From an uncultured Eubacteriales bacterium (GTDB taxonomy: Bacteria; Bacillota; Clostridia; Oscillospirales; CAG-272), in contig CAKSEM010000001.1 in assembly GCA_934446485.1 (NCBI GenBank), positions 12,594 through 76,593 on the forward strand: DNA of 64,000 nucleotides, read 5' to 3'. Below the pieces are notes generated by a model that was given only the letters and a program-made list of their open reading frames with translations, had not been told where the DNA came from and did no database searches. The stretch's first letter is position 1, and the number at the start of each line of letters is the position of its first letter. The position numbers were made by a program, and so were the translations under genes. Positions 49,033-56,612 of this stretch are shown piece by piece.

Positions 49033-49069
49033 GCCCAGCTCTTTCTTTCGTGAAGGGCTGGGCTTTTTA
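49033..49069 (+). terminator. Rho-independent terminator
   Basis: gcccagc (49033-49039) pairs with gctgggc (49057-49063), followed by ttttt. Confidence 0.55.
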
Positions 49070-49133
49070 ATTGTTGAGTTATGTAATATAAACTTTACCA
49101 CCACAATATAAACTATTCATAAATAAAAAAACT

Positions 49134-49919
49134 ATGGTGGTATATTCTTTATTAGACCCTAATGATGGTGTTGTTCGCTATATCGGCATCACAACATTAA
49201 CTGCTAAAAAACGATTTGCAATTCATTTGAAGGATGCGAAGACTAAACGTAGAAAGGGATTGTATATGAGCAAAAAGGAAAAGTGGCTGTTGGAGTTGTT
49301 TGAAAATAACCAACGCCCGATTATTTCCACTTTGTTTACAGATTTGGCTAAAAGCGATGCGGAAGAAAAAGAAAAGCAGCTAATCGCTTTATATAAACGC
49401 ACATCGGAAGGGGGTATTCTTTATAATGTGCAAGAAGGTGGGGAATTTCATTCTGATATGATGACACCTTGGAATAAAGATAAACATAACTGCTATAGTG
49501 AGGATTTCTTGTTGAATAATAAGTTGAATCAACCTAATAGTAAGAAAGTTTATCGCTTCACTAAAGATGGAGAATTAATAGATGTATGGAATAGCACAAG
49601 AGATATGTGCGCAACTTTGAATTTTGATAGAAGAACTGTTATGCGATGCTTGCATAAAGAGGAGAATTTTATATCACATAAGGGATATATGTTTAGCTAT
49701 GAAAAAATATCACCACAGTATGTGAATAAATCAACTTTAGCAACATACCATAATAGCCCACATGCAAAATCAATTCTTGTAACTTTCAAAGATGGGCAGC
49801 AAATAAAATTTAATAGCATTAAAGAAGCTGCTGAAAAACTTGAAATACACGCATCGTGTATTAGTAGTGTGATGAAGACCACACAATCTTATAAACAATA
49901 TAAATTCAAATTCTTATAA
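49134..49919 (+). CDS. Free-standing GIY-YIG homing endonuclease
   Basis: 261 aa. N-terminus 'VVYSLLDPNDGVVRYIGIT...RFAIH' is the GIY...YIG motif. Basic C-terminal DNA-binding-like half. Its stop overlaps the terL ATG (TAATG). Confidence 0.8.
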   Translation: MVVYSLLDPNDGVVRYIGITTLTAKKRFAIHLKDAKTKRRKGLYMSKKEKWLLELFENNQRPIISTLFTDLAKSDAEEKEKQLIALYKRTSEGGILYNVQEGGEFHSDMMTPWNKDKHNCYSEDFLLNNKLNQPNSKKVYRFTKDGELIDVWNSTRDMCATLNFDRRTVMRCLHKEENFISHKGYMFSYEKISPQYVNKSTLATYHNSPHAKSILVTFKDGQQIKFNSIKEAAEKLEIHASCISSVMKTTQSYKQYKFKFL

Positions 49920-50155
49920 TGGCATACGGACAATTAAAAGCACCGACCAACATTAGAATTGATTTTAAGCCATCACCAAGACAGTATGAGCTTTGGAAAT
50001 TATTACAACCAGATTATTGTCCTCATTGTGGTGGTCATATTATACAAGTTCAATCTGGATATGATCAGCAAGGTAATCCAAAATATGTTCCACAATGCGA
50101 TGCTTGCGGAACGCAAGATCTCCCTCAATTGATTTTGGGTGGAGGTGCTGCTGGT
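49919..50155 (+). CDS. terL: Terminase large subunit, exon 1
   Basis: 79 codons ending '...LILGGGAAG', the first half of the Walker A box. Past 50155 the ORF runs into intron sequence and stops at 50209. Confidence 0.75.
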
Positions 50156-50423
50156 AAACAATGCCCACTGCCAGCCTTCACGGTAACGTGTCGAAAAATA
50201 GCTCTTTAATTGCTGGGAAACCCTAACTACGAATTAGAAGGGCAATCAGCAGCCAAGCCTTATTGTAAGGAAGGTTCAACGACTATTCCGCAAGGAAGTA
50301 CAGCCAAGCGGCTGGAAATGGGAGCCTCCAGTTTTCTCTGGATGAAGATATAGTCTAATCTGCATAGAAGATATGCAGCCGTAACAGGGTTAAGAAGTAG
50401 CGTCTCTTAATAAATACAAATTG
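50156..50423 (+). mobile_element. Group I (IA-like) self-splicing intron, ORF-less
   Basis: P1: exon GCUGGU (50150-50155) pairs with IGS GCCAGC (50170-50175), giving U-G at the splice site. P10: exon-2 GGUGG pairs with CCACU (50165-50169). Terminal G at 50423. 'GAAGAUAUAGUC' J8/7-P7 motif at 50344-50355, with the GACUA partner at 50281-50285. GNRA-capped hairpins include cacg-GUAA-cgtg and a P7.1-like ttcc-GCAA-ggaa, followed by a P7.2-like hairpin. Confidence 0.8.
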
Positions 50424-51776
50424 GGTGGAAAGAGTTATCTGGGTAGTTGCTGGCTTGTGTCAAGCTGCATACGGTTTCCAGATATTCGAGCTGTCGTAGC
50501 TCGCAAAACATTGAAATCTTTGAAAGAGTCAACATTTAACACCATCAAAAAGGTGTGTAAAGAATGGGGGCTTGTTGAAGGTGAACACTATAAAATCAAC
50601 AACCTGGAGGGTACGCTTACATTCTGGAATGGCTCTGTCATTATTATGAAAGAAATGGCAGACAATCCATCCGATCCACAGTTTGAACGTTTTGGTTCTT
50701 CAGAGTATACCATAGCTTTTGTAGATGAGGTTTCGGAGATTTCAGAAAAGGCTATAGAAGTATTGTTTTCTCGTTTACGTTGGAGAACCGCAGAAACCTT
50801 CAAAACTGCCAGAATGTTGATGACAACAAACCCATGTATCAATTGGGTTCGCTCTCGCTTCGTCCAGGATGATGATGGTAATCCAGTAAAATGTAGAATC
50901 GGAGAAGCGTATTTGCCATTCTCAGTTTGGGATAACCCAGATAGGCAATTTGTACAAAGTTATGTGGCTGCTCTCAACAAGATTAGTGACCCGATAACAA
51001 AATCACGACTTTTGTATGGCAACTGGGATTTTGTTGATACAAATGAAGCTGCTGCATATTGGAACTTTGATGGAGCCAAGCATCTTGTCACTAATTTGCG
51101 TGAAAAGGTATATAATCCATTGAAGCCAATCATTTCATCATGGGACTTCAACGTACAGCCATACATGTCCACATTGTCCATCCAGATTGATTATGAACAT
51201 AAGAAAGTATATGTGCTTGAAGAAGTGCTTGGAAAGCCAGAGGAAAAAGAAAATAACACCCCAAAGCTTTCCAAAAAGATAGCCAACAAGTATTTAACCG
51301 AAAAGCACCTTGGTGGTCTATTCATTACTGGAGACCCAGCAGGATTGTCACGCTCTACACAAACAGAAGAGGGTGTAAATAATTACACTATCATTATGAG
51401 CAATATGGATAATCCAATATTACGAGTGCAAAAGAAATTGCTTACAAAACAGCCAGCACAGGTGACTCGTCTGGAATATGTAAACAGTCTTTTGAATGGG
51501 TATGATGGCTGGGAATTGCAAATTGATATGCGTTGCCGTAGACTTACTGAAGACTTAGTTTATCAGAAAAAAAATGCTGATGGAACAAAGTCTAAAGCCA
51601 AAGTAACGGATCCGAAGAGTGGCGTAAAGTATGAAAAATACGGACACCTTTCAGATTGTTTGGATTATGTCCTTTGCTTGTTCTTAAATAACACATGGGC
51701 TAAATTCCAAAAGAAAGGTGACGCTTCAGTTATAGAAACTACAACTACGCCTATATATGGCGGTTTTTCTTTTTAG
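50424..51776 (+). CDS. terL: Terminase large subunit, exon 2
   Basis: Begins 'GGKSYLGSCW...'. The spliced product reads GGGAAGGGKS (GxxxxGKS). Walker B 'IAFVDEVSE'. RNaseH-like nuclease half 'SSWDFN', 'GDPAG', 'HLSDCLDY'. Confidence 0.85.
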   Translation, partial: GGKSYLGSCWLVSSCIRFPDIRAVVARKTLKSLKESTFNTIKKVCKEWGLVEGEHYKINNLEGTLTFWNGSVIIMKEMADNPSDPQFERFGSSEYTIAFVDEVSEISEKAIEVLFSRLRWRTAETFKTARMLMTTNPCINWVRSRFVQDDDGNPVKCRIGEAYLPFSVWDNPDRQFVQSYVAALNKISDPITKSRLLYGNWDFVDTNEAAAYWNFDGAKHLVTNLREKVYNPLKPIISSWDFNVQPYMSTLSIQIDYEHKKVYVLEEVLGKPEEKENNTPKLSKKIANKYLTEKHLGGLFITGDPAGLSRSTQTEEGVNNYTIIMSNMDNPILRVQKKLLTKQPAQVTRLEYVNSLLNGYDGWELQIDMRCRRLTEDLVYQKKNADGTKSKAKVTDPKSGVKYEKYGHLSDCLDYVLCLFLNNTWAKFQKKGDASVIETTTTPIYGGFSF

Positions 51777-51779
51777 AGA

Positions 51780-52805
51780 ATGTACAGGAGATTTTTGAAT
51801 AATGAGGACTATCTTAGCATAGTTACAGAAGAAGCTCTTAGCCAACTTATACGAGGCAGAGAAGACCGTCTCGCACAGGCTGAAGAGGCAGCAGAACAAT
51901 CTATCGTAGAATATCTGACTGACAACTACGAGATTGAGAACGTATTGGAGGAAGGGAAGAATATTTTGGAATACGATGACCAAATCACCTATCCAGTTGG
52001 CGCACATTTCTACCATGATAAGAAGCTTGTAAAGGCAATGCGTACTATTAATGGTAGAAAGGCTCCTACAGATACAATGTATTGGGAAATGTATGATGAA
52101 CCAATTGATAATCCTAATATAGTAAGCGAATACTGGCAGACAAAAGATTATATCCCAGGTGATATTGTATATTTTGCCAACGCTTATTATATCTGTAAGG
52201 AGTATAACGGCTTATCATACGGAGACATTAGGGTTCCTGGTGTTGATGCCTGGAAGAGTGTGGACATTCAAAATTGGGAGGCTAATGTGCCTTACGAGAT
52301 TTGGAATGTTGTAGAATATGATGGAATTTTCTATGCACTGGTCAAGAACGATGAAGACATAGACTTGACTGTCAATCCTTATGATTCGGAATATTGGGGC
52401 ATGATAGGGGATTATGATGCAGCATATCAATACGAATTTTCCGACCATGAATATGTCGTATATAATAATAAGGTATATGCACCATCAATGTCTGTAAATG
52501 CAGATGTACTTAAAGAAGGTTACAATATACAAGAAAGTGACCCTCGTAATGCCAATGTAAAGAAGCACATGCTACGTTTGGCAGTATACGAGCTACATAA
52601 GCTCATATCGCCAAACAATGTAAGCTCTGCTCGCATTACAGACTATGAGACATCAATTACTTGGTTGCGTGACGCTTCCAGACTTAAAATAAATCCTCAC
52701 ATACCTCGTAAGCTGGATGAGGATGATAATAAGCCTGTCACTGAGTATGCGATAGCAACATTTGCTCGTGATTACGACCCCAACAAGAATCCTTGGCAGA
52801 TTTAA
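51780..52805 (+). CDS. Hypothetical protein with three aromatic-rich CBM5/12-like repeats
   Basis: 341 aa. Repeats are 'YIPGDIVYFANAYYICKEYN', 'YEIWNVVEYDGIFYALVKND' and 'HEYVVYNNKVYAPSMS'. Confidence 0.45.
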   Translation: MYRRFLNNEDYLSIVTEEALSQLIRGREDRLAQAEEAAEQSIVEYLTDNYEIENVLEEGKNILEYDDQITYPVGAHFYHDKKLVKAMRTINGRKAPTDTMYWEMYDEPIDNPNIVSEYWQTKDYIPGDIVYFANAYYICKEYNGLSYGDIRVPGVDAWKSVDIQNWEANVPYEIWNVVEYDGIFYALVKNDEDIDLTVNPYDSEYWGMIGDYDAAYQYEFSDHEYVVYNNKVYAPSMSVNADVLKEGYNIQESDPRNANVKKHMLRLAVYELHKLISPNNVSSARITDYETSITWLRDASRLKINPHIPRKLDEDDNKPVTEYAIATFARDYDPNKNPWQI

Positions 52806-53466: not shown

Positions 53467-54732
53467 ATGGTGAAGCTAAAATTCATTGTACGAGACGGCT
53501 TTCTTGTTCTGCGAATAAGCGAAGGCAAGGAAAGGTACTACAAATCCGTCAAAAGTATTCTTGTTGGCAATCCTAATATTCTCAAACACTGGAAAGCCGA
53601 CAAAGAACGTTTTTCCACTTACGCTACTTCTTATCAGGAGAACAACAAGGCATTGGATGATTTTAAGCAAGTGTACCGTAAACTATGCTTAGAACATCCA
53701 GAATATAATGCCCGACAGGTTGCGTCTTATTATTCCCATTCAAAAATTCTGAATAAGACAAACGGCATTGAGACAGAAGCCGCTGGTTCTGCCATGTTTT
53801 TGGAACAGTTCATGGAAGTAGTTATTGAACGTGAAAAGCAAAAGCAGGGCTGTAACTTTGAGTGTTATGAGAAGCTGCTTACCAAATGTCGTAAAATCAT
53901 TCCAGACTTCAATCTCATCAAATTCTCAGACATTAACTATGATTTCTGTTCTAAGATAGCTGGAATATTTGCAAAGTACAATGGCTTCAAAGGCACGGCA
54001 AAAACATTTAGAGCCATTCTTGGGCGAGCCTCAAAAGACCGTGAAGTAGATTTTTCTCTCGTGCGCATAGGTGATTTCAACTTCAATGACTATAACCCAG
54101 CAAAATATGAAGATGATATGAAGCACCCAGATGTGCTTACAAAAGACCAAATTAAGGACTTCATGCACGTTGACCTTTTCAATCTTACACCAGAGTGGGC
54201 AAATAGAGAAAAGGTGGAACTGTACTATGATTTCTGCGTGTTTATGCTACAGTCGTTTTTTGCTCCCTGTGACGTTATAAAGCTGAAGGTGGAGCATATT
54301 ACCAGAAATCATACAATCCTCGCCAGACGCAAGAAAACGCACAAAATGGTGGAAATTCCAATAACCCCTAAGATGGAGGAAGTTATCAATAAGTATGCTG
54401 GACAATCAAAGGATGGTTATGTGTTTCCAATCATGGATGACGAAGAAGAGAAGAAACACGTTACGAAGGATTACATCTTTAAGAAGTTTCGACAAAAACT
54501 AAATATATGGCTTAAAGATGTGGGTGATGAATTACAATGTGATTTTGATTTGTATGCTTATGTGTTTCGGCATACTGCTATTACGGTTGCGCTCGATCAT
54601 GGTTTGCCTATAGCTTACATTGCTTCTGTTGCTGGAACGAGCGTAGATGTCATTCAGAAACATTATTACAATGGCAATAGTGTAGATAACCAACTAAAAC
54701 TTCAACAGGCATTTATGCAAGCCTGTATATAA
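53467..54732 (+). CDS. int: Tyrosine recombinase / phage integrase
   Basis: 421 aa. C-terminal catalytic pattern 'LARRKKTHK', 'YVFRHTAITVAL', 'VIQKHYY'. The N-terminus resembles a Bacteroidota-style arm-binding domain. Confidence 0.85.
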   Translation: MVKLKFIVRDGFLVLRISEGKERYYKSVKSILVGNPNILKHWKADKERFSTYATSYQENNKALDDFKQVYRKLCLEHPEYNARQVASYYSHSKILNKTNGIETEAAGSAMFLEQFMEVVIEREKQKQGCNFECYEKLLTKCRKIIPDFNLIKFSDINYDFCSKIAGIFAKYNGFKGTAKTFRAILGRASKDREVDFSLVRIGDFNFNDYNPAKYEDDMKHPDVLTKDQIKDFMHVDLFNLTPEWANREKVELYYDFCVFMLQSFFAPCDVIKLKVEHITRNHTILARRKKTHKMVEIPITPKMEEVINKYAGQSKDGYVFPIMDDEEEKKHVTKDYIFKKFRQKLNIWLKDVGDELQCDFDLYAYVFRHTAITVALDHGLPIAYIASVAGTSVDVIQKHYYNGNSVDNQLKLQQAFMQACI

Positions 54733-55945: not shown

Positions 55946-55966
55946 ATTCCAATGACAAATCGCTTG

Positions 55967-56040
55967 TGGAGAAGGTGAGACTCGAACTCACGACCCTATG
56001 CTTGCAAAGCATACGCTCTTGCCATCTGAGCTACAACCCC
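55967..56040 (-). tRNA. tRNA-Ala (anticodon UGC)
   Basis: Hand-folded cloverleaf. G3-U70 Ala identity pair. Anticodon loop TTTGCAA. T loop TTCGAGT. Tandem U-U mismatches at 5:68 and 6:67. Confidence 0.75.
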
Positions 56041-56046
56041 AAATTG

Positions 56047-56120
56047 CGGAACTGGGAGGACTTGAACCTCCGACCCTTGCATTAACAGTGCAACGCTCTG
56101 ACCAACTGAGCTACAGAACC
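56047..56120 (-). tRNA. tRNA-Asn (anticodon GUU)
   Basis: Hand-folded cloverleaf. Anticodon loop CTGTTAA. Discriminator G. Tandem U-U mismatches at 3:70 and 4:69. Confidence 0.75.
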
Positions 56121-56128
56121 TTTTGTAG

Positions 56129-56200
56129 AGGGCAATGCTGGAATCGAACCAGCGTAAAACTGTTTTGCAGACAGCCGCCTAACCACTCGACTAATTGCCC
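56129..56200 (-). tRNA. tRNA-Cys (anticodon GCA)
   Basis: Perfect acceptor stem GGGCAAT/ATTGCCC. Discriminator U73. Anticodon loop CTGCAAA. T arm GCTGG-TTCGATT-CCAGC. Confidence 0.85.
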
Positions 56201-56213
56201 CATGAAAAATATG

Positions 56214-56513
56214 TTACTTTGCCGTATAGAGTCTCATACCGCAATGGAAATGAGGCATGACTGCAAGATAATAACCTCTTGTTGTCGGCTTTCCGTATGT
56301 ATCAAGTTTATTAGCTATCGTATGATGTAGAGCCTTTTCATGTGTGCAAACTCCAACAACACCATTATAGCCAACATGCTTGAAATATTTGCAGTTGCCA
56401 CATACAGGCTTCTTGTCAAGCTCGATGTCACACTGCGGAACTTCATTCTTCTTATTCTTGTGCAGGAACTTCCCCAGTTTATTCCTAACACGCTTCATAA
56501 TACCTATTCCCAT
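56214..56513 (-). CDS. Small Cys/His-rich hypothetical protein embedded in the tRNA cluster
   Basis: 99-aa ORF that exactly fills the gap between tRNA-Cys and tRNA-Met. Contains 'CGNCKYFKH...C..H'. Confidence 0.5.
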   Translation of the reverse strand: MGIGIMKRVRNKLGKFLHKNKKNEVPQCDIELDKKPVCGNCKYFKHVGYNGVVGVCTHEKALHHTIANKLDTYGKPTTRGYYLAVMPHFHCGMRLYTAK

Positions 56514-56540
56514 ATTTGCTTTTGTTTCGCTGTTTTATAG

Positions 56541-56612
56541 TTGCAGAGACTGGAATCGAACCAGTGACCTCCAGGTAATGAGCCTGGCGAGCTACCGCTG
56601 CTCTACTCTGCG
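56541..56612 (-). tRNA. Initiator-type tRNA-Met (anticodon CAU)
   Basis: C1xA72 mismatch. 'GAGCAGCGGTAGCTCG' D arm as in bacterial tRNA-fMet. Anticodon loop CTCATTA. Confidence 0.8.

What the first reader, a model, noticed from the sequence alone, without database searches (positions are those of the whole stretch)
50140..50435. ORF-less group IA-like intron splitting the TerL Walker A box
terL reads '...LILGGGAAG' to 50155, then leaves the protein-like frame and stops at 50209. The frame resumes at 50424 as 'GGKSYLGSCW...'. The 268-nt gap has several group I hallmarks. P1 pairs GCUGGU with GCCAGC, placing U-G at the 5' splice site. P10 pairs GGUGG (exon 2) with CCACU immediately 5' of the IGS. 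The terminal nucleotide is G (50423). The P7 pair is GACUA/UAGUC, preceded by 'GAUGAAGAUAUAG', which is near-identical to the Tetrahymena/Azoarcus J8/7. There are P7.1/P7.2-like hairpins (ttcc-GCAA-ggaa; cagcc-aagc-ggctg), as in phage subgroup IA introns, and P3 pairs GCUCUU with GGGAGC. Of the splice-site combinations compatible with the terL reading frame, this is the only one that has both a U at the 5' splice site and a terminal G, and it yields a perfect GxxxxGKS (GAAGGGKS).
Basis: partly seen in the sequence, partly recalled or inferred. Interest (0 to 1): 0.65.

Follow-up and report, generated by a model that had tools for sequence, protein, structure and literature searches.

The report
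Self-splicing intron splitting phage terminase gene
A 268-base self-splicing group I intron really does interrupt the ATP-binding motif of this gut (Bacteroidales) phage's DNA-packaging gene, and it always accompanies a separate homing-endonuclease gene next door that probably spreads it; this is a clear new example of an arrangement already known from a few other phages.

Summary
[quoted passage not shown] Evidence: Rfam Intron_gpI scores 90.3 bits (gathering 50). Three 95-96% identical relatives lack exactly these 268 nt. Uninterrupted TerL homologues read LILGGGAAG|GGKSYLGS. Across 15 distinct copies at this site, 97.6% of proposed pairs form and 32 of 61 pairs show compensatory changes. 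A profile of these introns also finds the T4 td and nrdB introns. One reader claim is wrong: this is not the only in-frame U...G splice-site pair.

It is a separate insertion, also absent from the intronless relatives. In every lineage sampled the endonuclease occurs only with the intron, while the intron sometimes occurs alone. Sequence divergence from intronless relatives clusters around both elements. The best reading is collaborative homing: the endonuclease cuts intronless terL and the intron protects its own genome. Cleavage was not tested.

Vibrio phage ICP1 has the same arrangement in terL, so this is a new member of a known kind. Interest is moderate.

The parts
49919..50155 (+). terL exon 1: 79 codons, a zinc-ribbon-like N-terminus plus the first half of the Walker A box (...LILGGGAAG)
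   Evidence: ORF list. Aligns with residues 1-79 of uninterrupted TerL homologues. It is the most diverged stretch against intronless relatives, 86-89% identical versus 95-96% in the flanks.
50156..50423 (+). ORF-less group I intron, IA type, 268 nt, ending in G at 50423
   Evidence: Rfam RF00028 at 90.3 bits, E 8.7e-22. Absent exactly from L002, L003 and L004. Structure supported by covariation in 15 copies. Profile hits the T4 td and nrdB introns and the phiNIT1 RNR intron.
50150..50175 (+). P1: exon GCUGGU (50150-50155) paired with the internal guide GCCAGC (50170-50175), with U50155.G50170 at the 5' splice site. The loop carries the proposed P10 partner CCACU (50165-50169).
   Evidence: Six pairs, invariant in 15 of 15 copies except one C-G at the splice site in L186. 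Intronless alleles read GCAGGC, which cannot form this helix. MFE folding recovers it. P10.
50179..50190 (+). P2 hairpin CACG-GUAA-CGUG
   Evidence: 3 of 4 pairs change on both sides; 100% of cells paired.
50201..50206 (+). P3 5' strand GCUCUU, which pairs with 50320-50325
   Evidence: 3 of 6 pairs show compensatory changes; 98.9% paired.
50211..50251 (+). P4 (50211-50216 with 50246-50251), enclosing P5 (50221-50223 with 50240-50242)
   Evidence: P4 is invariant in all 15 copies and matches the Rfam consensus UUGCNGG...CNGCA. P5 is 84% paired with 2 compensatory pairs.
50252..50275 (+). P6 (50252-50253 with 50274-50275) and P6a (50258-50262 with 50266-50270)
   Evidence: P6 is invariant. All 4 counted P6a pairs change on both sides; 81% paired, limited by the alignment.
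50281..50285 (+). P7 5' strand GACUA, which pairs with 50351-50355 (pseudoknot with P3; G-binding helix)
   Evidence: 100% paired, with one compensatory U-A to C-G change in L230. Matches the Rfam consensus AGACUA / AUAGUC.
50286..50297 (+). P7.1 hairpin UUCC-GCAA-GGAA
   Evidence: 100% paired, 2 pairs compensatory in L230. Its core string occurs in more than 120 metagenome contigs and 32 genomes.
50301..50314 (+). P7.2 hairpin CAGCC-AAGC-GGCUG
   Evidence: All 5 pairs change on both sides; 100% paired.
50320..50325 (+). P3 3' strand GGGAGC
   Evidence: See the P3 5' strand.
50327..50342 (+). P8 hairpin
   Evidence: The three basal pairs are 100% paired, one of them compensatory. The outer part varies in length between copies.
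50343..50355 (+). J8/7 (UGAAGAUA, 50343-50350) and P7 3' strand UAGUC (50351-50355)
   Evidence: Invariant in 15 copies apart from one base. Identical to the Rfam consensus.
50360..50378 (+). P9 hairpin
   Evidence: 5 of 7 pairs compensatory; 100% paired.
50390..50410 (+). P9.2 hairpin with the conserved loop GUAGCG
   Evidence: 6 of 6 pairs compensatory; 95.6% paired. The loop is also conserved in the T4 td and nrdB and phiNIT1 introns.
50207..50209 (+). TAA stop in the exon 1 frame, 18 codons into the intron, within the conserved J3/4 string UUUAAUUGC
   Evidence: ORF 49919-50209; conserved string.
50424..51776 (+). terL exon 2: GGKSYLGS..., 450 codons plus stop
   Evidence: Terminase_3 match. 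The spliced 529-aa product is 98% identical to the uninterrupted P0001. Splicing extends the Terminase_3 match from profile position 32 to position 9.
49134..49919 (+). Free-standing GIY-YIG homing endonuclease gene (261 aa). Its stop codon overlaps the terL ATG (TAATG).
   Evidence: Pfam GIY-YIG 25.3 bits (cut-off 22.6) and I-HmuI_NUMOD-like 44.8 bits. PHROG 314 'homing endonuclease'. Intact in 5 lineages at 52-57% identity, with Y4, Y16, G18, R27, H31, E80 and N98 invariant.
49073..49915 (+). The whole endonuclease cassette as an insertion, absent from L002, L003, L004 and L078
   Evidence: BLAST breakpoints at 49072 and 49916 in four relatives.
49033..49068 (+). Terminator-like hairpin ending the upstream gene. 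It is the left border of the endonuclease insertion.
   Evidence: 12-bp stem followed by a T run; conserved in relatives that lack the HEG.
49924..50008 (+). Divergence tract next to the endonuclease: ten substitutions against the near-identical phage L078 (intron present, HEG absent). Nine of these positions also differ in each of the intronless relatives.
   Evidence: Mismatch map.
50065..50478 (+). Divergence tract centred on the intron, against intronless relatives. It includes 12 mismatches in the first 55 nt of exon 2 before divergence falls to background. The window and L078 differ at only one base across 50009-50464.
   Evidence: Mismatch map.

Best explanation
Window 50156-50423 is a genuine ORF-less group I intron of the phage IA type, inserted between codons G79 and G80 of the terminase large-subunit gene, inside the Walker A box. 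In the transcript, the guide GCCAGC pairs with the last six exon 1 bases (P1, with U.G at the splice site). An external guanosine bound at P7 attacks after U50155. The freed exon 1 end then attacks after the terminal G50423. This joins GCUGGU to GGUGGA and yields a 529-residue TerL with an intact GAAGGGKS loop. At the DNA level the intron is a mobile element. It has no endonuclease of its own and most likely spreads with the free-standing GIY-YIG homing endonuclease encoded directly upstream (49134-49919), by collaborative homing. In this model the enzyme cuts intronless terL at or near the conserved P-loop site during co-infection. Repair copies the intron, and usually the endonuclease gene 240 bp away, from the carrier genome. 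The intron disrupts the target and so protects the carrier. Shown here: the intron's identity, exact borders and structure; that both elements are insertions; and their association. Inferred: splicing activity (about 0.9) and the endonuclease's target and role (about 0.55-0.6).
For: Identity: Rfam RF00028 scores 90.3 bits against a gathering score of 50. A profile of the terL-site copies hits the T4 nrdB intron (E 2e-18 and 3e-8), the T4 td intron (4e-15) and the phiNIT1 RNR intron (2e-35). The T4 record annotates both of its introns as group 1A, and phiNIT1 RNR large-subunit introns splice in vitro (PMC11878797).

Borders: L002, L003 and L004 lack exactly 50156-50423. Uninterrupted homologues read GGGAAG|GGKS at the same length. 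Intronless alleles carry GCAGGC where carriers have GCUGGU, the synonymous codons that P1 needs.

Structure: 15 distinct copies, 97.6% of cells paired against 32-44% when partners are slid, 32 of 61 pairs with compensatory changes, and 0 of 500 shuffles as good.

Mobility: for 9 of 14 intron-bearing TerL lineages the nearest TerL is intronless, up to 99.6% identical.

Endonuclease: GIY-YIG and NUMOD-like domains, with catalytic-motif residues invariant across 52-57% identical homologues. It is a separate insertion.

Association: among TerL-sampled viral contigs, the 3 intron carriers all have the HEG and the roughly 42 intronless contigs do not. Sampled from the HEG side, 16 of 16 loci that reach the site, from 8 further HEG clusters, carry the intron. 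The HEG was never seen without the intron, whereas the intron occurs without the HEG in L078, L162 and L204. The dereplicated 2x2 table is 11/2/0/15, Fisher p = 3.6e-6, from mixed sampling.

Co-conversion footprint: divergence from intronless relatives peaks around the intron, and the window and L078 differ at one base across 50009-50464.

Precedent for the mechanism: PMC3984707 and PMC10448857.
Against: No RNA data, so splicing is inferred. The MFE z-score of the intron is unremarkable at -0.85. P10 support is one-directional. Nothing here shows where the endonuclease cuts. The ten-substitution tract beside the endonuclease gene (49924-50008) could mark a target in the 5' end of terL instead. 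The HEG-intron association is partly inflated by tight linkage (240 bp) and shared ancestry. The HEG-side and intron-side samples are each biased in their own way. The endonuclease shows no BLASTP similarity to I-TevI or SegG and no solved relative, so no target can be inferred by homology. Barth et al. (PMC10448857) note that such arrangements may instead arise by endonuclease turnover.
Confidence: 0.8

Rival explanations
1. The intron is real, but the endonuclease targets a site near its own insertion point (the terL 5' end or the intergenic region), as typical free-standing phage endonucleases do. The intron 240 bp away is dragged along by co-conversion. This is trans homing of a passenger, as shown for T4 mobE and the nrdB intron.
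For: Ten clustered substitutions at 49924-50008, directly beside the endonuclease gene, separate the window from L078 (intron present, HEG absent), and nine of them also separate it from the intronless relatives. This is what immunity changes or a second conversion tract would look like. There is experimental precedent for trans homing (PMC2790892).
Against: If the break were at the endonuclease's own site, recombinants with the endonuclease but without the intron should be at least as common as the reverse. None was found in about a dozen endonuclease lineages, while intron-only genomes exist. L078 shows a conversion tract centred on the intron that does not include the endonuclease gene.
Confidence: 0.2
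2. There is no functional link. The intron and the endonuclease are two independent selfish insertions in a hot spot, and their co-occurrence reflects tight linkage and common descent. Alternatively, the free-standing gene replaced an earlier intron-encoded endonuclease (turnover).
For: Regions upstream of terL are general hot spots for endonuclease genes, and turnover has been proposed for such loci (PMC10448857). The same P-loop also hosts inteins in relatives. Three lineages keep the intron without any endonuclease.
Against: The association holds across endonuclease homologues only 47-60% identical to each other. It also holds across TerL backgrounds whose nearest relatives are intronless and lack the endonuclease, which implies repeated joint transfer. 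The endonuclease family is narrow (about 19 close clusters in 5.8 billion proteins). Every member examined in context, from both viral contigs and metagenomes, sits at this one position.
Confidence: 0.12
3. The insert is a decayed, non-splicing intron relic, so terL in this genome is a pseudogene in a dead prophage.
For: Splicing was not observed. One relative (L186) has C instead of U at the 5' splice site and a TGA in the P-loop codons, so decay does occur in this family.
Against: The window copy has all core helices intact, the U.G pair and the terminal G. The same structure is kept by compensatory changes in 15 lineages. Both exons are open and 98% identical to an uninterrupted TerL. L078 carries a copy differing at 1 of 268 bases in an independent sample.
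Confidence: 0.04
4. The endonuclease-like protein is a domesticated accessory of the packaging machinery, like the HNH protein encoded upstream of the HK97 terminase, rather than a selfish element.
For: Its position is directly upstream of terL and it overlaps the terL start codon. Precedent is discussed in PMC10448857.
Against: It is absent from phages 95-99% identical in TerL (L002, L003, L004, L078), so it is dispensable. Its domain make-up is that of homing endonucleases.
Confidence: 0.03

Closest known systems
Vibrio phage ICP1 terL intron with the adjacent T5orf172 endonuclease gene (Barth et al. 2023, PMC10448857)
   Same: terL is split into a short N-terminal exon and a long C-terminal exon by an intron without an ORF. 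[quoted passage not shown] The authors interpret this as a collaborative-homing arrangement. Annotation pipelines call only the large exon as terminase, as happened here with P0009.
   Different: ICP1 splicing was shown by RNA-seq and RT-PCR; here it was not. The host phylum is different, the TerL lineages are unrelated (no ICP1 hit), and the endonuclease domain family differs (T5orf172 versus GIY-YIG plus NUMOD-like). I could not establish whether the ICP1 intron lies in the Walker A box, because the text does not say. Here, natural genomes with both, one or neither element are available.
Collaborative homing in cyanophage S-PM2 (psbA intron with F-CphI) and in T3/T7-like phages (DNA polymerase intron with a free-standing HNH): Zeng, Bonocora and Shub 2009; Bonocora and Shub 2009, as summarised in PMC3984707
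   Same: [quoted passage not shown] The intron protects the carrier and the two are inherited together.
   Different: In those systems, cleavage at the intron insertion site was shown experimentally. Here it is inferred from distribution and conversion tracts. The gene and the endonuclease families also differ.
Phage T4 td and nrdB introns (IA2), with I-TevI and mobE
   Same: The ribozymes are homologous: the profile of the terL-site introns matches P7, P7.1, P7.2, P3', P8, J8/7 and P9-P9.2 of both T4 introns. I-TevI is also a GIY-YIG enzyme. mobE mobilises the nrdB intron in trans (PMC2790892).
   Different: The T4 introns carry their endonuclease ORFs inside the intron; this one is ORF-less and only 268 nt. 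The endonuclease here is not detectably similar to I-TevI or SegG by BLASTP.
terL and RNR introns of Bastillevirinae Bacillus phages (SIOphi terL, phiNIT1 RNR; PMC11878797)
   Same: These are group IA introns in phage terL and nucleotide-metabolism genes with demonstrated splicing. The phiNIT1 RNR large-subunit intron is the best match of the profile among characterised phages, E 1.6e-35.
   Different: Most of those introns (32 of 45) carry an endonuclease ORF in a loop and average 802 nt. The hosts are Firmicutes.
Inteins in the TerL P-loop (crAss-like Delta group, PMC7886860; and homologues of this TerL)
   Same: A selfish element with a homing endonuclease occupies the same conserved Walker A coding DNA. 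In homologues of this TerL the intein sits after GGGK, 9 nt from the intron site.
   Different: Inteins are removed at the protein level, not the RNA level. They carry a LAGLIDADG endonuclease within the element.

Membership tests
Group I intron (Rfam RF00028) | Covariance-model score at or above the curated gathering score | tested here: met
   90.3 bits against 50, E 8.7e-22, full model 1-253. Homologous copies in relatives score 70-80 bits.
Group I intron (Rfam RF00028) | P1 formed by an internal guide sequence and the 5' exon end, with a U.G wobble at the 5' splice site | tested here: met
   GCUGGU pairs with GCCAGC. All six pairs hold in 15 of 15 copies, with U.G in 14 and C-G in the degenerate L186. 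Intronless alleles lack the complementary codons.
Group I intron (Rfam RF00028) | Terminal guanosine at the 3' splice site | tested here: met
   G50423. The border is fixed by alignment to intronless alleles and cannot slide. The last intron base is G in all copies inspected.
Group I intron (Rfam RF00028) | Conserved core P3-P8 with the P3/P7 pseudoknot and conserved J8/7 | tested here: met
   P3, P4, P6, P7 and P8 are 98.9-100% paired, with compensatory changes in P3, P7 and P8. J8/7 is identical to the consensus.
Group I intron (Rfam RF00028) | P10 between the guide loop and the 3' exon | tested here: inconclusive
   4-5 bp is possible in every intact copy. GGAGG exons form only 2 bp with the loops of GGUGG-type introns, but GGUGG pairs equally well with the other loops.
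Group I intron (Rfam RF00028) | Guanosine-dependent self-splicing that yields ligated exons | not testable with these tools
   Needs RT-PCR or an in vitro splicing assay.
Subgroup IA (phage IA2-like) | Extra helices P7.1 and P7.2 between P7 and the 3' strand of P3 (criterion recalled from Michel and Westhof 1990) | tested here: met
   Both hairpins are 100% paired. All 5 pairs of P7.2 and 2 pairs of P7.1 show compensatory changes.
Subgroup IA (phage IA2-like) | Sequence homology to established IA introns | tested here: met
   nhmmer profile hits T4 nrdB (E 2e-18 and 3e-8) and T4 td (4e-15), both annotated 'group 1A intron' in NC_000866.
Subgroup IA (phage IA2-like) | Assignment to IA1, IA2 or IA3 with subgroup-specific models | not tested
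   No subgroup models were available. PMC11878797 notes that phage 'IA2' is itself heterogeneous.
Collaborative (trans) homing pair | The intron lacks its own endonuclease ORF | tested here: met
   268 nt; the only internal ORF is 47 codons with a TTG start.
Collaborative (trans) homing pair | A free-standing homing endonuclease gene adjacent to the interrupted gene, itself present or absent among relatives | tested here: met
   GIY-YIG ORF at 49134-49919. The cassette 49073-49915 is absent from L002, L003, L004 and L078.
Collaborative (trans) homing pair | Joint inheritance: the endonuclease is found only in intron-bearing genomes | tested here: met
   No lineage has the endonuclease without the intron, 11 have both and 3 have only the intron.
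Collaborative (trans) homing pair | The endonuclease cleaves the intronless allele at or near the intron insertion site, and the intron-containing allele is resistant | not testable with these tools
   Needs a cleavage assay. The conversion tracts are compatible with it but not decisive.
GIY-YIG homing endonuclease | A GIY-YIG catalytic domain above the curated threshold, with the motif residues conserved | tested here: met
   PF01541 at 25.3 bits against a cut-off of 22.6. Y4, Y16, G18, R27, H31, E80 and N98 are invariant in five homologues. Their equivalence to I-TevI catalytic residues is from memory.
GIY-YIG homing endonuclease | A C-terminal DNA-binding module of the intron-endonuclease type | tested here: met
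   PF22083 I-HmuI_NUMOD-like at 44.8 bits against 27; NUMOD1 just below its threshold.

The most novel reading that the evidence does not exclude
This locus is a natural two-part mobile intron caught before fusion. A narrow GIY-YIG endonuclease family has specialised on the Walker A coding DNA of one Bacteroidales-phage TerL family and depends on an ORF-less intron at that site for self-immunity. All stages (neither element, intron only, both) circulate today in near-identical gut phages. The conserved inverted P-loop-like motif upstream of the endonuclease gene (49090-49104) could then be an operator through which the enzyme represses itself, as I-TevI does (that precedent is from memory).
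Probability: 0.5. Interest if true: 0.55.

Novelty: new member of a known kind. Interest (0 to 1): 0.4.

Why it matters
There is a practical consequence for annotation. Gene callers split this terL into a 96-codon orphan ORF and a 451-residue 'terminase' that lacks half of its ATP-binding loop. One database cluster of 42 sequences (P0009) consists of exactly this truncated product. Recognising the intron restores the correct 529-residue protein.

Biologically, collaborative homing is the proposed route by which mobile group I introns are assembled from a ribozyme and a free-standing endonuclease, and only a few cases are documented. This locus adds a well-sampled one from abundant gut phages. 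One carrier comes from a cultured Bacteroides isolate, which makes experiments feasible. Near-identical genomes carry neither element, the intron alone, or both. The conversion tracts are visible, and an intein competes for the same 30 bp. Together these allow a direct test of whether the intron acts as the endonuclease's immunity element.

Tried and rejected
- Megablast of 49100-51800 against 50,697 phage records found nothing. The nearest cultured relative by protein is Bacteroides phage BS-TP1, whose TerL is 62.8% identical and uninterrupted.
- The PDB sequence search with the endonuclease gave only chance-level hits, best E 0.04. BLASTP against I-TevI and SegG was not significant. The enzyme's target therefore cannot be guessed by homology.
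- The thermodynamic test is uninformative: the MFE z-score is -0.85 and 46 of 200 shuffles fold as well.
- My first drawing of P9.1 (50379-50389) was only 36% paired and was dropped. The first P10 column alignment gave 69% paired because of register shifts, so P10 was re-examined without an alignment.
- An automatic call of intron state from tblastn failed, because the low-complexity GGGAAGGG stretch truncates the alignments. It was replaced by motif-based parsing.
- The raw Rfam hit coordinates (50116-50378) should not be taken as the intron. The model placed its P1 on an exon hairpin and stopped at P9.
- I considered that the intronless contig L002 might be a spliced transcript from a metatranscriptome. 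I rejected this because it also lacks the endonuclease cassette, differs at 33 of 237 exon 1 positions, and agrees with the viral DNA contigs L003 and L004.
- I tested the inverted P-loop-like motif upstream of the endonuclease gene. It is only weakly above chance and is missing in some lineages, so I do not use it as evidence.
- I looked for a replacement endonuclease in the intron-only genomes L162 and L204 and found none.
Full report
**1. What is in the sequence**

The ORF starting at 49919 reads MAYGQ...LILGGGAAG up to 50155. It then continues in non-protein-like sequence to a TAA at 50207-50209. A second ORF in another phase covers 50421-51776 and reads (M)GGKSYLGSCW.... Exon 2 alone matches Pfam Terminase_3 from profile position 32. 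Joining 49919-50155 to 50424-51776 gives a 529-residue protein whose match starts at profile position 9 and includes GAAGGGKS.

**2. Is the insert a group I intron?**

- A scan of the whole window against Rfam gives one Intron_gpI match, at 90.3 bits against a gathering score of 50, E 8.7e-22.
- The printed alignment shows P3, P4, P5, P6, P8 and P9, and an exact match to the consensus UGAAGAUAUAGUC.
- It also shows a 34-nt insertion between P7 and the 3' strand of P3, which is where P7.1 and P7.2 lie.
- The model misplaced its P1 on an exon hairpin and stopped at P9, so the hit coordinates (50116-50378) are not the intron's borders.

**3. Exact borders**

- A protein search with the spliced product found an uninterrupted 529-aa TerL at 98% identity (P0001) and hundreds of homologues of 524-538 aa. 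Every one aligned reads LILGGGAAGGGKSYLGS.
- The DNA of P0001 (L002) and of two viral contigs (L003, L004) is 95-96% identical to the window on both sides and lacks exactly 50156-50423.
- The border cannot slide, because the base before the insert (T) differs from its last base (G), and its first base (A) differs from the first exon 2 base (G).
One search lists about a hundred such pairs, three of which give a GxxxxGKS motif. Only 50155/50423 reproduces the length GGGAAGGGKS and forms P1.
- The intronless alleles read GCAGGC where the window has GCTGGT. These two synonymous differences are the ones needed to pair with the guide GCCAGC and to give U.G at the splice site.

**4. Structure and covariation**

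Scans from three directions recovered 17 distinct sequences of this intron at the same terL site. Lengths are 245-286 nt, and identity to the window falls to about 74%. The three queries were:
- TerL peptides;
- an intron core pattern;
- the neighbouring endonuclease.

On an alignment of 15 of them I counted a hand-drawn structure of P1-P9.2 with P7 as a pseudoknot:
- 97.6% of cells are standard pairs, against 32-44% when the 3' partners are slid by 1-3 columns.
- 32 of 61 pairs change on both sides.
- No shuffle out of 500 reaches any of the five measures.
- Compensatory changes occur in P2, P3, P5, P6a, P7, P7.1, P7.2, P8, P9 and P9.2.
- P1, P4 and P6 are invariant.

P10 is plausible. In the window, exon 2 GGUGG pairs with CCACU directly 5' of the guide. 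Lineages with GGAGG carry CUCC or CCUC instead. The test is only one-directional, however. Folding energy alone is uninformative.

**5. Subgroup**

P7.1 and P7.2 between P7 and P3' are the mark of subgroup IA; that criterion comes from my own knowledge of Michel and Westhof's scheme. As a tool-based check, an nhmmer profile of the 15 copies was run against known introns:

| Intron | E-value |
|---|---|
| T4 nrdB (two halves, split by I-TevIII) | 2e-18 and 3e-8 |
| T4 td (3' half) | 4e-15 |
| phiNIT1 ribonucleotide reductase large subunit | 2e-35 |

Both T4 introns are annotated 'group 1A' in the T4 record. In vitro self-splicing has been reported for the phiNIT1 gene (PMC11878797).

The P7-P7.1 core string occurs in more than 120 metagenome contigs and 32 genomes from many phyla. 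The profile finds 231 copies in 166 fetched loci. Sampled hosts are minor tail or tape-measure genes, SU10-type capsid genes, a C5 methylase, nrdD and thyX. blastn finds the core in 443 phage records. The ribozyme therefore belongs to a large, known phage family.

**6.

ORF 49134-49919 (261 aa) has a GIY-YIG domain above the Pfam threshold and an I-HmuI/NUMOD-like DNA-binding domain. It also matches PHROG 314, 'homing endonuclease'. Its stop codon overlaps the terL ATG.

The cassette 49073-49915 lies between a terminator-like hairpin (49033-49063) and terL. It is absent from L002, L003, L004 and L078. Five homologues at 52-57% identity are all intact and keep the GIY/YIG tyrosines, R27, H31, E80 and N98, so the enzyme is under selection.

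**7. Association of endonuclease and intron**

| Sampling direction | Result |
|---|---|
| TerL side (48 viral contigs) | 3 intron carriers, all with the endonuclease; about 42 intronless, none with it; 1 with the endonuclease ends before the site |
| Endonuclease side (about 19 close clusters in 5.8 billion proteins; 8 further clusters fetched) | all 16 loci that reach the site carry the intron |
| Intron side | 2 of 5 carriers have the endonuclease; L078, L162 and L204 do not and have no replacement |

After dereplication the table is 11 lineages with both elements, 2 with the intron only, 0 with the endonuclease only and 15 with neither. L078, a third intron-only genome, falls in the window's group. 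Fisher p is 3.6e-6, but the sampling is mixed and the lineages are related.

For 9 of 14 intron-bearing TerL lineages the nearest TerL is intronless, up to 99.6% identical. The elements have therefore been gained or lost many times.

**8. Footprints of the insertion events**

- Against L002, L003 and L004 the window has 27-33 mismatches in the 237 nt of exon 1. It has 12-14 in the first 100 nt of exon 2 (12 of them within the first 55 nt in each relative) and then about 3-4 per 100 nt.
- Against L078 (intron present, endonuclease absent; intron differs at 1 of 268 bases) the window is identical from 50009 to 50464 except for that one base.
- The window differs from L078 at ten positions in 49924-50008. 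Nine of these also differ from the intronless alleles.
- There are therefore two tracts, one centred on the intron and one beside the endonuclease gene.
- L078 looks like the product of a conversion event around the intron site that did not reach the endonuclease gene.

**9. Mechanism**

RNA level, inferred from the family's established chemistry (PMC3984707): guanosine attacks after U50155, then the exons are ligated after G50423.

DNA level: the pattern is what collaborative homing predicts (PMC3984707). The pattern has four parts:
- the endonuclease is never found without the intron;
- the intron is sometimes found alone;
- a conversion tract is centred on the intron;
- the target is highly conserved P-loop DNA.

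In that model the endonuclease cuts the uninterrupted site, the intron destroys the site in the carrier, and repair copies the intron and usually the gene 240 bp away. A genome with the endonuclease but no intron would cut itself.

The main rival is that the enzyme cuts near its own insertion site and the intron is a passenger, as with T4 mobE (PMC2790892). The tract at 49924-50008 fits that rival, but the missing endonuclease-only class does not. I put about 0.55-0.6 on collaborative homing, 0.2 on passenger trans homing, about 0.12 on no functional link or turnover, and small values on the rest.

**10. Comparison with what is known**

- Group I introns in phage terL genes are documented, with splicing shown: SIOphi (PMC11878797) and ICP1 (PMC10448857).
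- ICP1 has the same layout: an ORF-less terL intron and a free-standing endonuclease beside the N-terminal exon, which its authors discuss as collaborative homing.
- Inteins in TerL of Bacteroidota phages are also known (PMC7886860).
- In homologues of this TerL an intein sits after GGGK, 9 nt from the intron site.

The finding is therefore a new member of a known kind. What it adds is a GIY-YIG partner, a Bacteroidales gut-phage lineage that includes a copy in the cultured Bacteroides sp. 224, and an unusually complete set of natural intermediates.

**11. Verdict**

Novelty is modest. Interest is 0.4: a specialist would not be surprised by the intron, but would find the endonuclease-intron distribution a useful, testable case for how mobile introns are assembled.

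Noticed in passing
window 50430-50435 (codons K82/S83), seen in homologues P0031, P0033, P0044 and P0110 and loci L043 and L047: Many homologues of this TerL (867-897 aa) carry an intein, mostly with Hom_end (PF05204) and/or LAGLIDADG_3 (PF14528) hits. In the four homologues aligned it is inserted after GGGK, only 9 nt downstream of the intron site. The same ~30 bp of P-loop DNA is therefore targeted by two different kinds of selfish element.
   Followed up: partly
window 49919-50155 (terL exon 1): Exon 1 encodes a CxxC...CxxC module (C34, C37, C60, C63) that is nearly invariant across homologues and gives weak zinc-ribbon Pfam hits. An N-terminal zinc ribbon ahead of the Walker A box appears to be a hallmark of this TerL family.
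   Followed up: partly
window 49090-49104 and 49113-49118: A conserved block AAAC(C/T)TTTACC(A/T)CC(A/T)C ... CTATTC lies 30-50 nt upstream of the endonuclease start in most lineages. Its reverse complement resembles the junction-spanning P-loop DNA TGGT|GGTGGAAA, matching 10 of 12 bases in 5 of 10 lineages. Per-locus shuffle p is 0.01-0.06, the loci are not independent, and the match is weaker or absent in the other five. It might be an operator or a target mimic; the evidence is weak.
   Followed up: partly
L186 2659-2964 (- strand), Muribaculaceae MAG contig CAZYQA010000282: This copy has C instead of U at the 5' splice site and a TGA within the P-loop codons of exon 2 (GGA TGA AAA). It may be a decaying copy or an assembly error.
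   Followed up: no
window 50116-50378: The raw Rfam hit is offset from the true intron. The model's P1 was placed on an exon hairpin (about 50120-50148) and the match ends at P9, which leaves P9.2 and the 3' tail (50379-50423) unmodelled. Automatic annotation from the hit coordinates would give wrong splice sites.
   Followed up: yes
window 55966-56612 (- strand): A cluster of four tRNA genes (Ala-TGC, Asn-GTT, Cys-GCA, Met-CAT).
   Followed up: no
window 53467-54732 (+); L207 (Bacteroides sp. 224 scaffold NZ_QVMK01000002, 320 kb): A 421-aa ORF has a sub-threshold Phage_integrase match (23.4 bits against 27.1). A related element with intron and endonuclease lies inside a 320-kb scaffold of a cultured Bacteroides, which suggests these roughly 100-kb phages may be temperate.
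   Followed up: no
P0009 (451 aa, 42 member sequences); gene calls in L217-L231: Public gene calls for intron carriers consist of a 85-97-aa orphan ORF plus a 373-451-aa 'terminase' that starts at or after GGKS. The truncated product forms its own database cluster.
   Followed up: yes
L053, L066, L062, L051 and others: Several fetched contigs carry two copies of this intron family within a few kilobases, for example two in an SU10-type capsid gene region of L066. The core pattern occurs in genomes from Firmicutes, Cyanobacteria, Thiotrichaceae, Desulfocapsa and others.
   Followed up: partly
P0002 (674 aa) and P0004 (616 aa): Two TerL homologues contain an internal duplication of about 90-150 residues (NSFDGSRHLV...KPEEKENNT appears twice). 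These are probably assembly artefacts.
   Followed up: no
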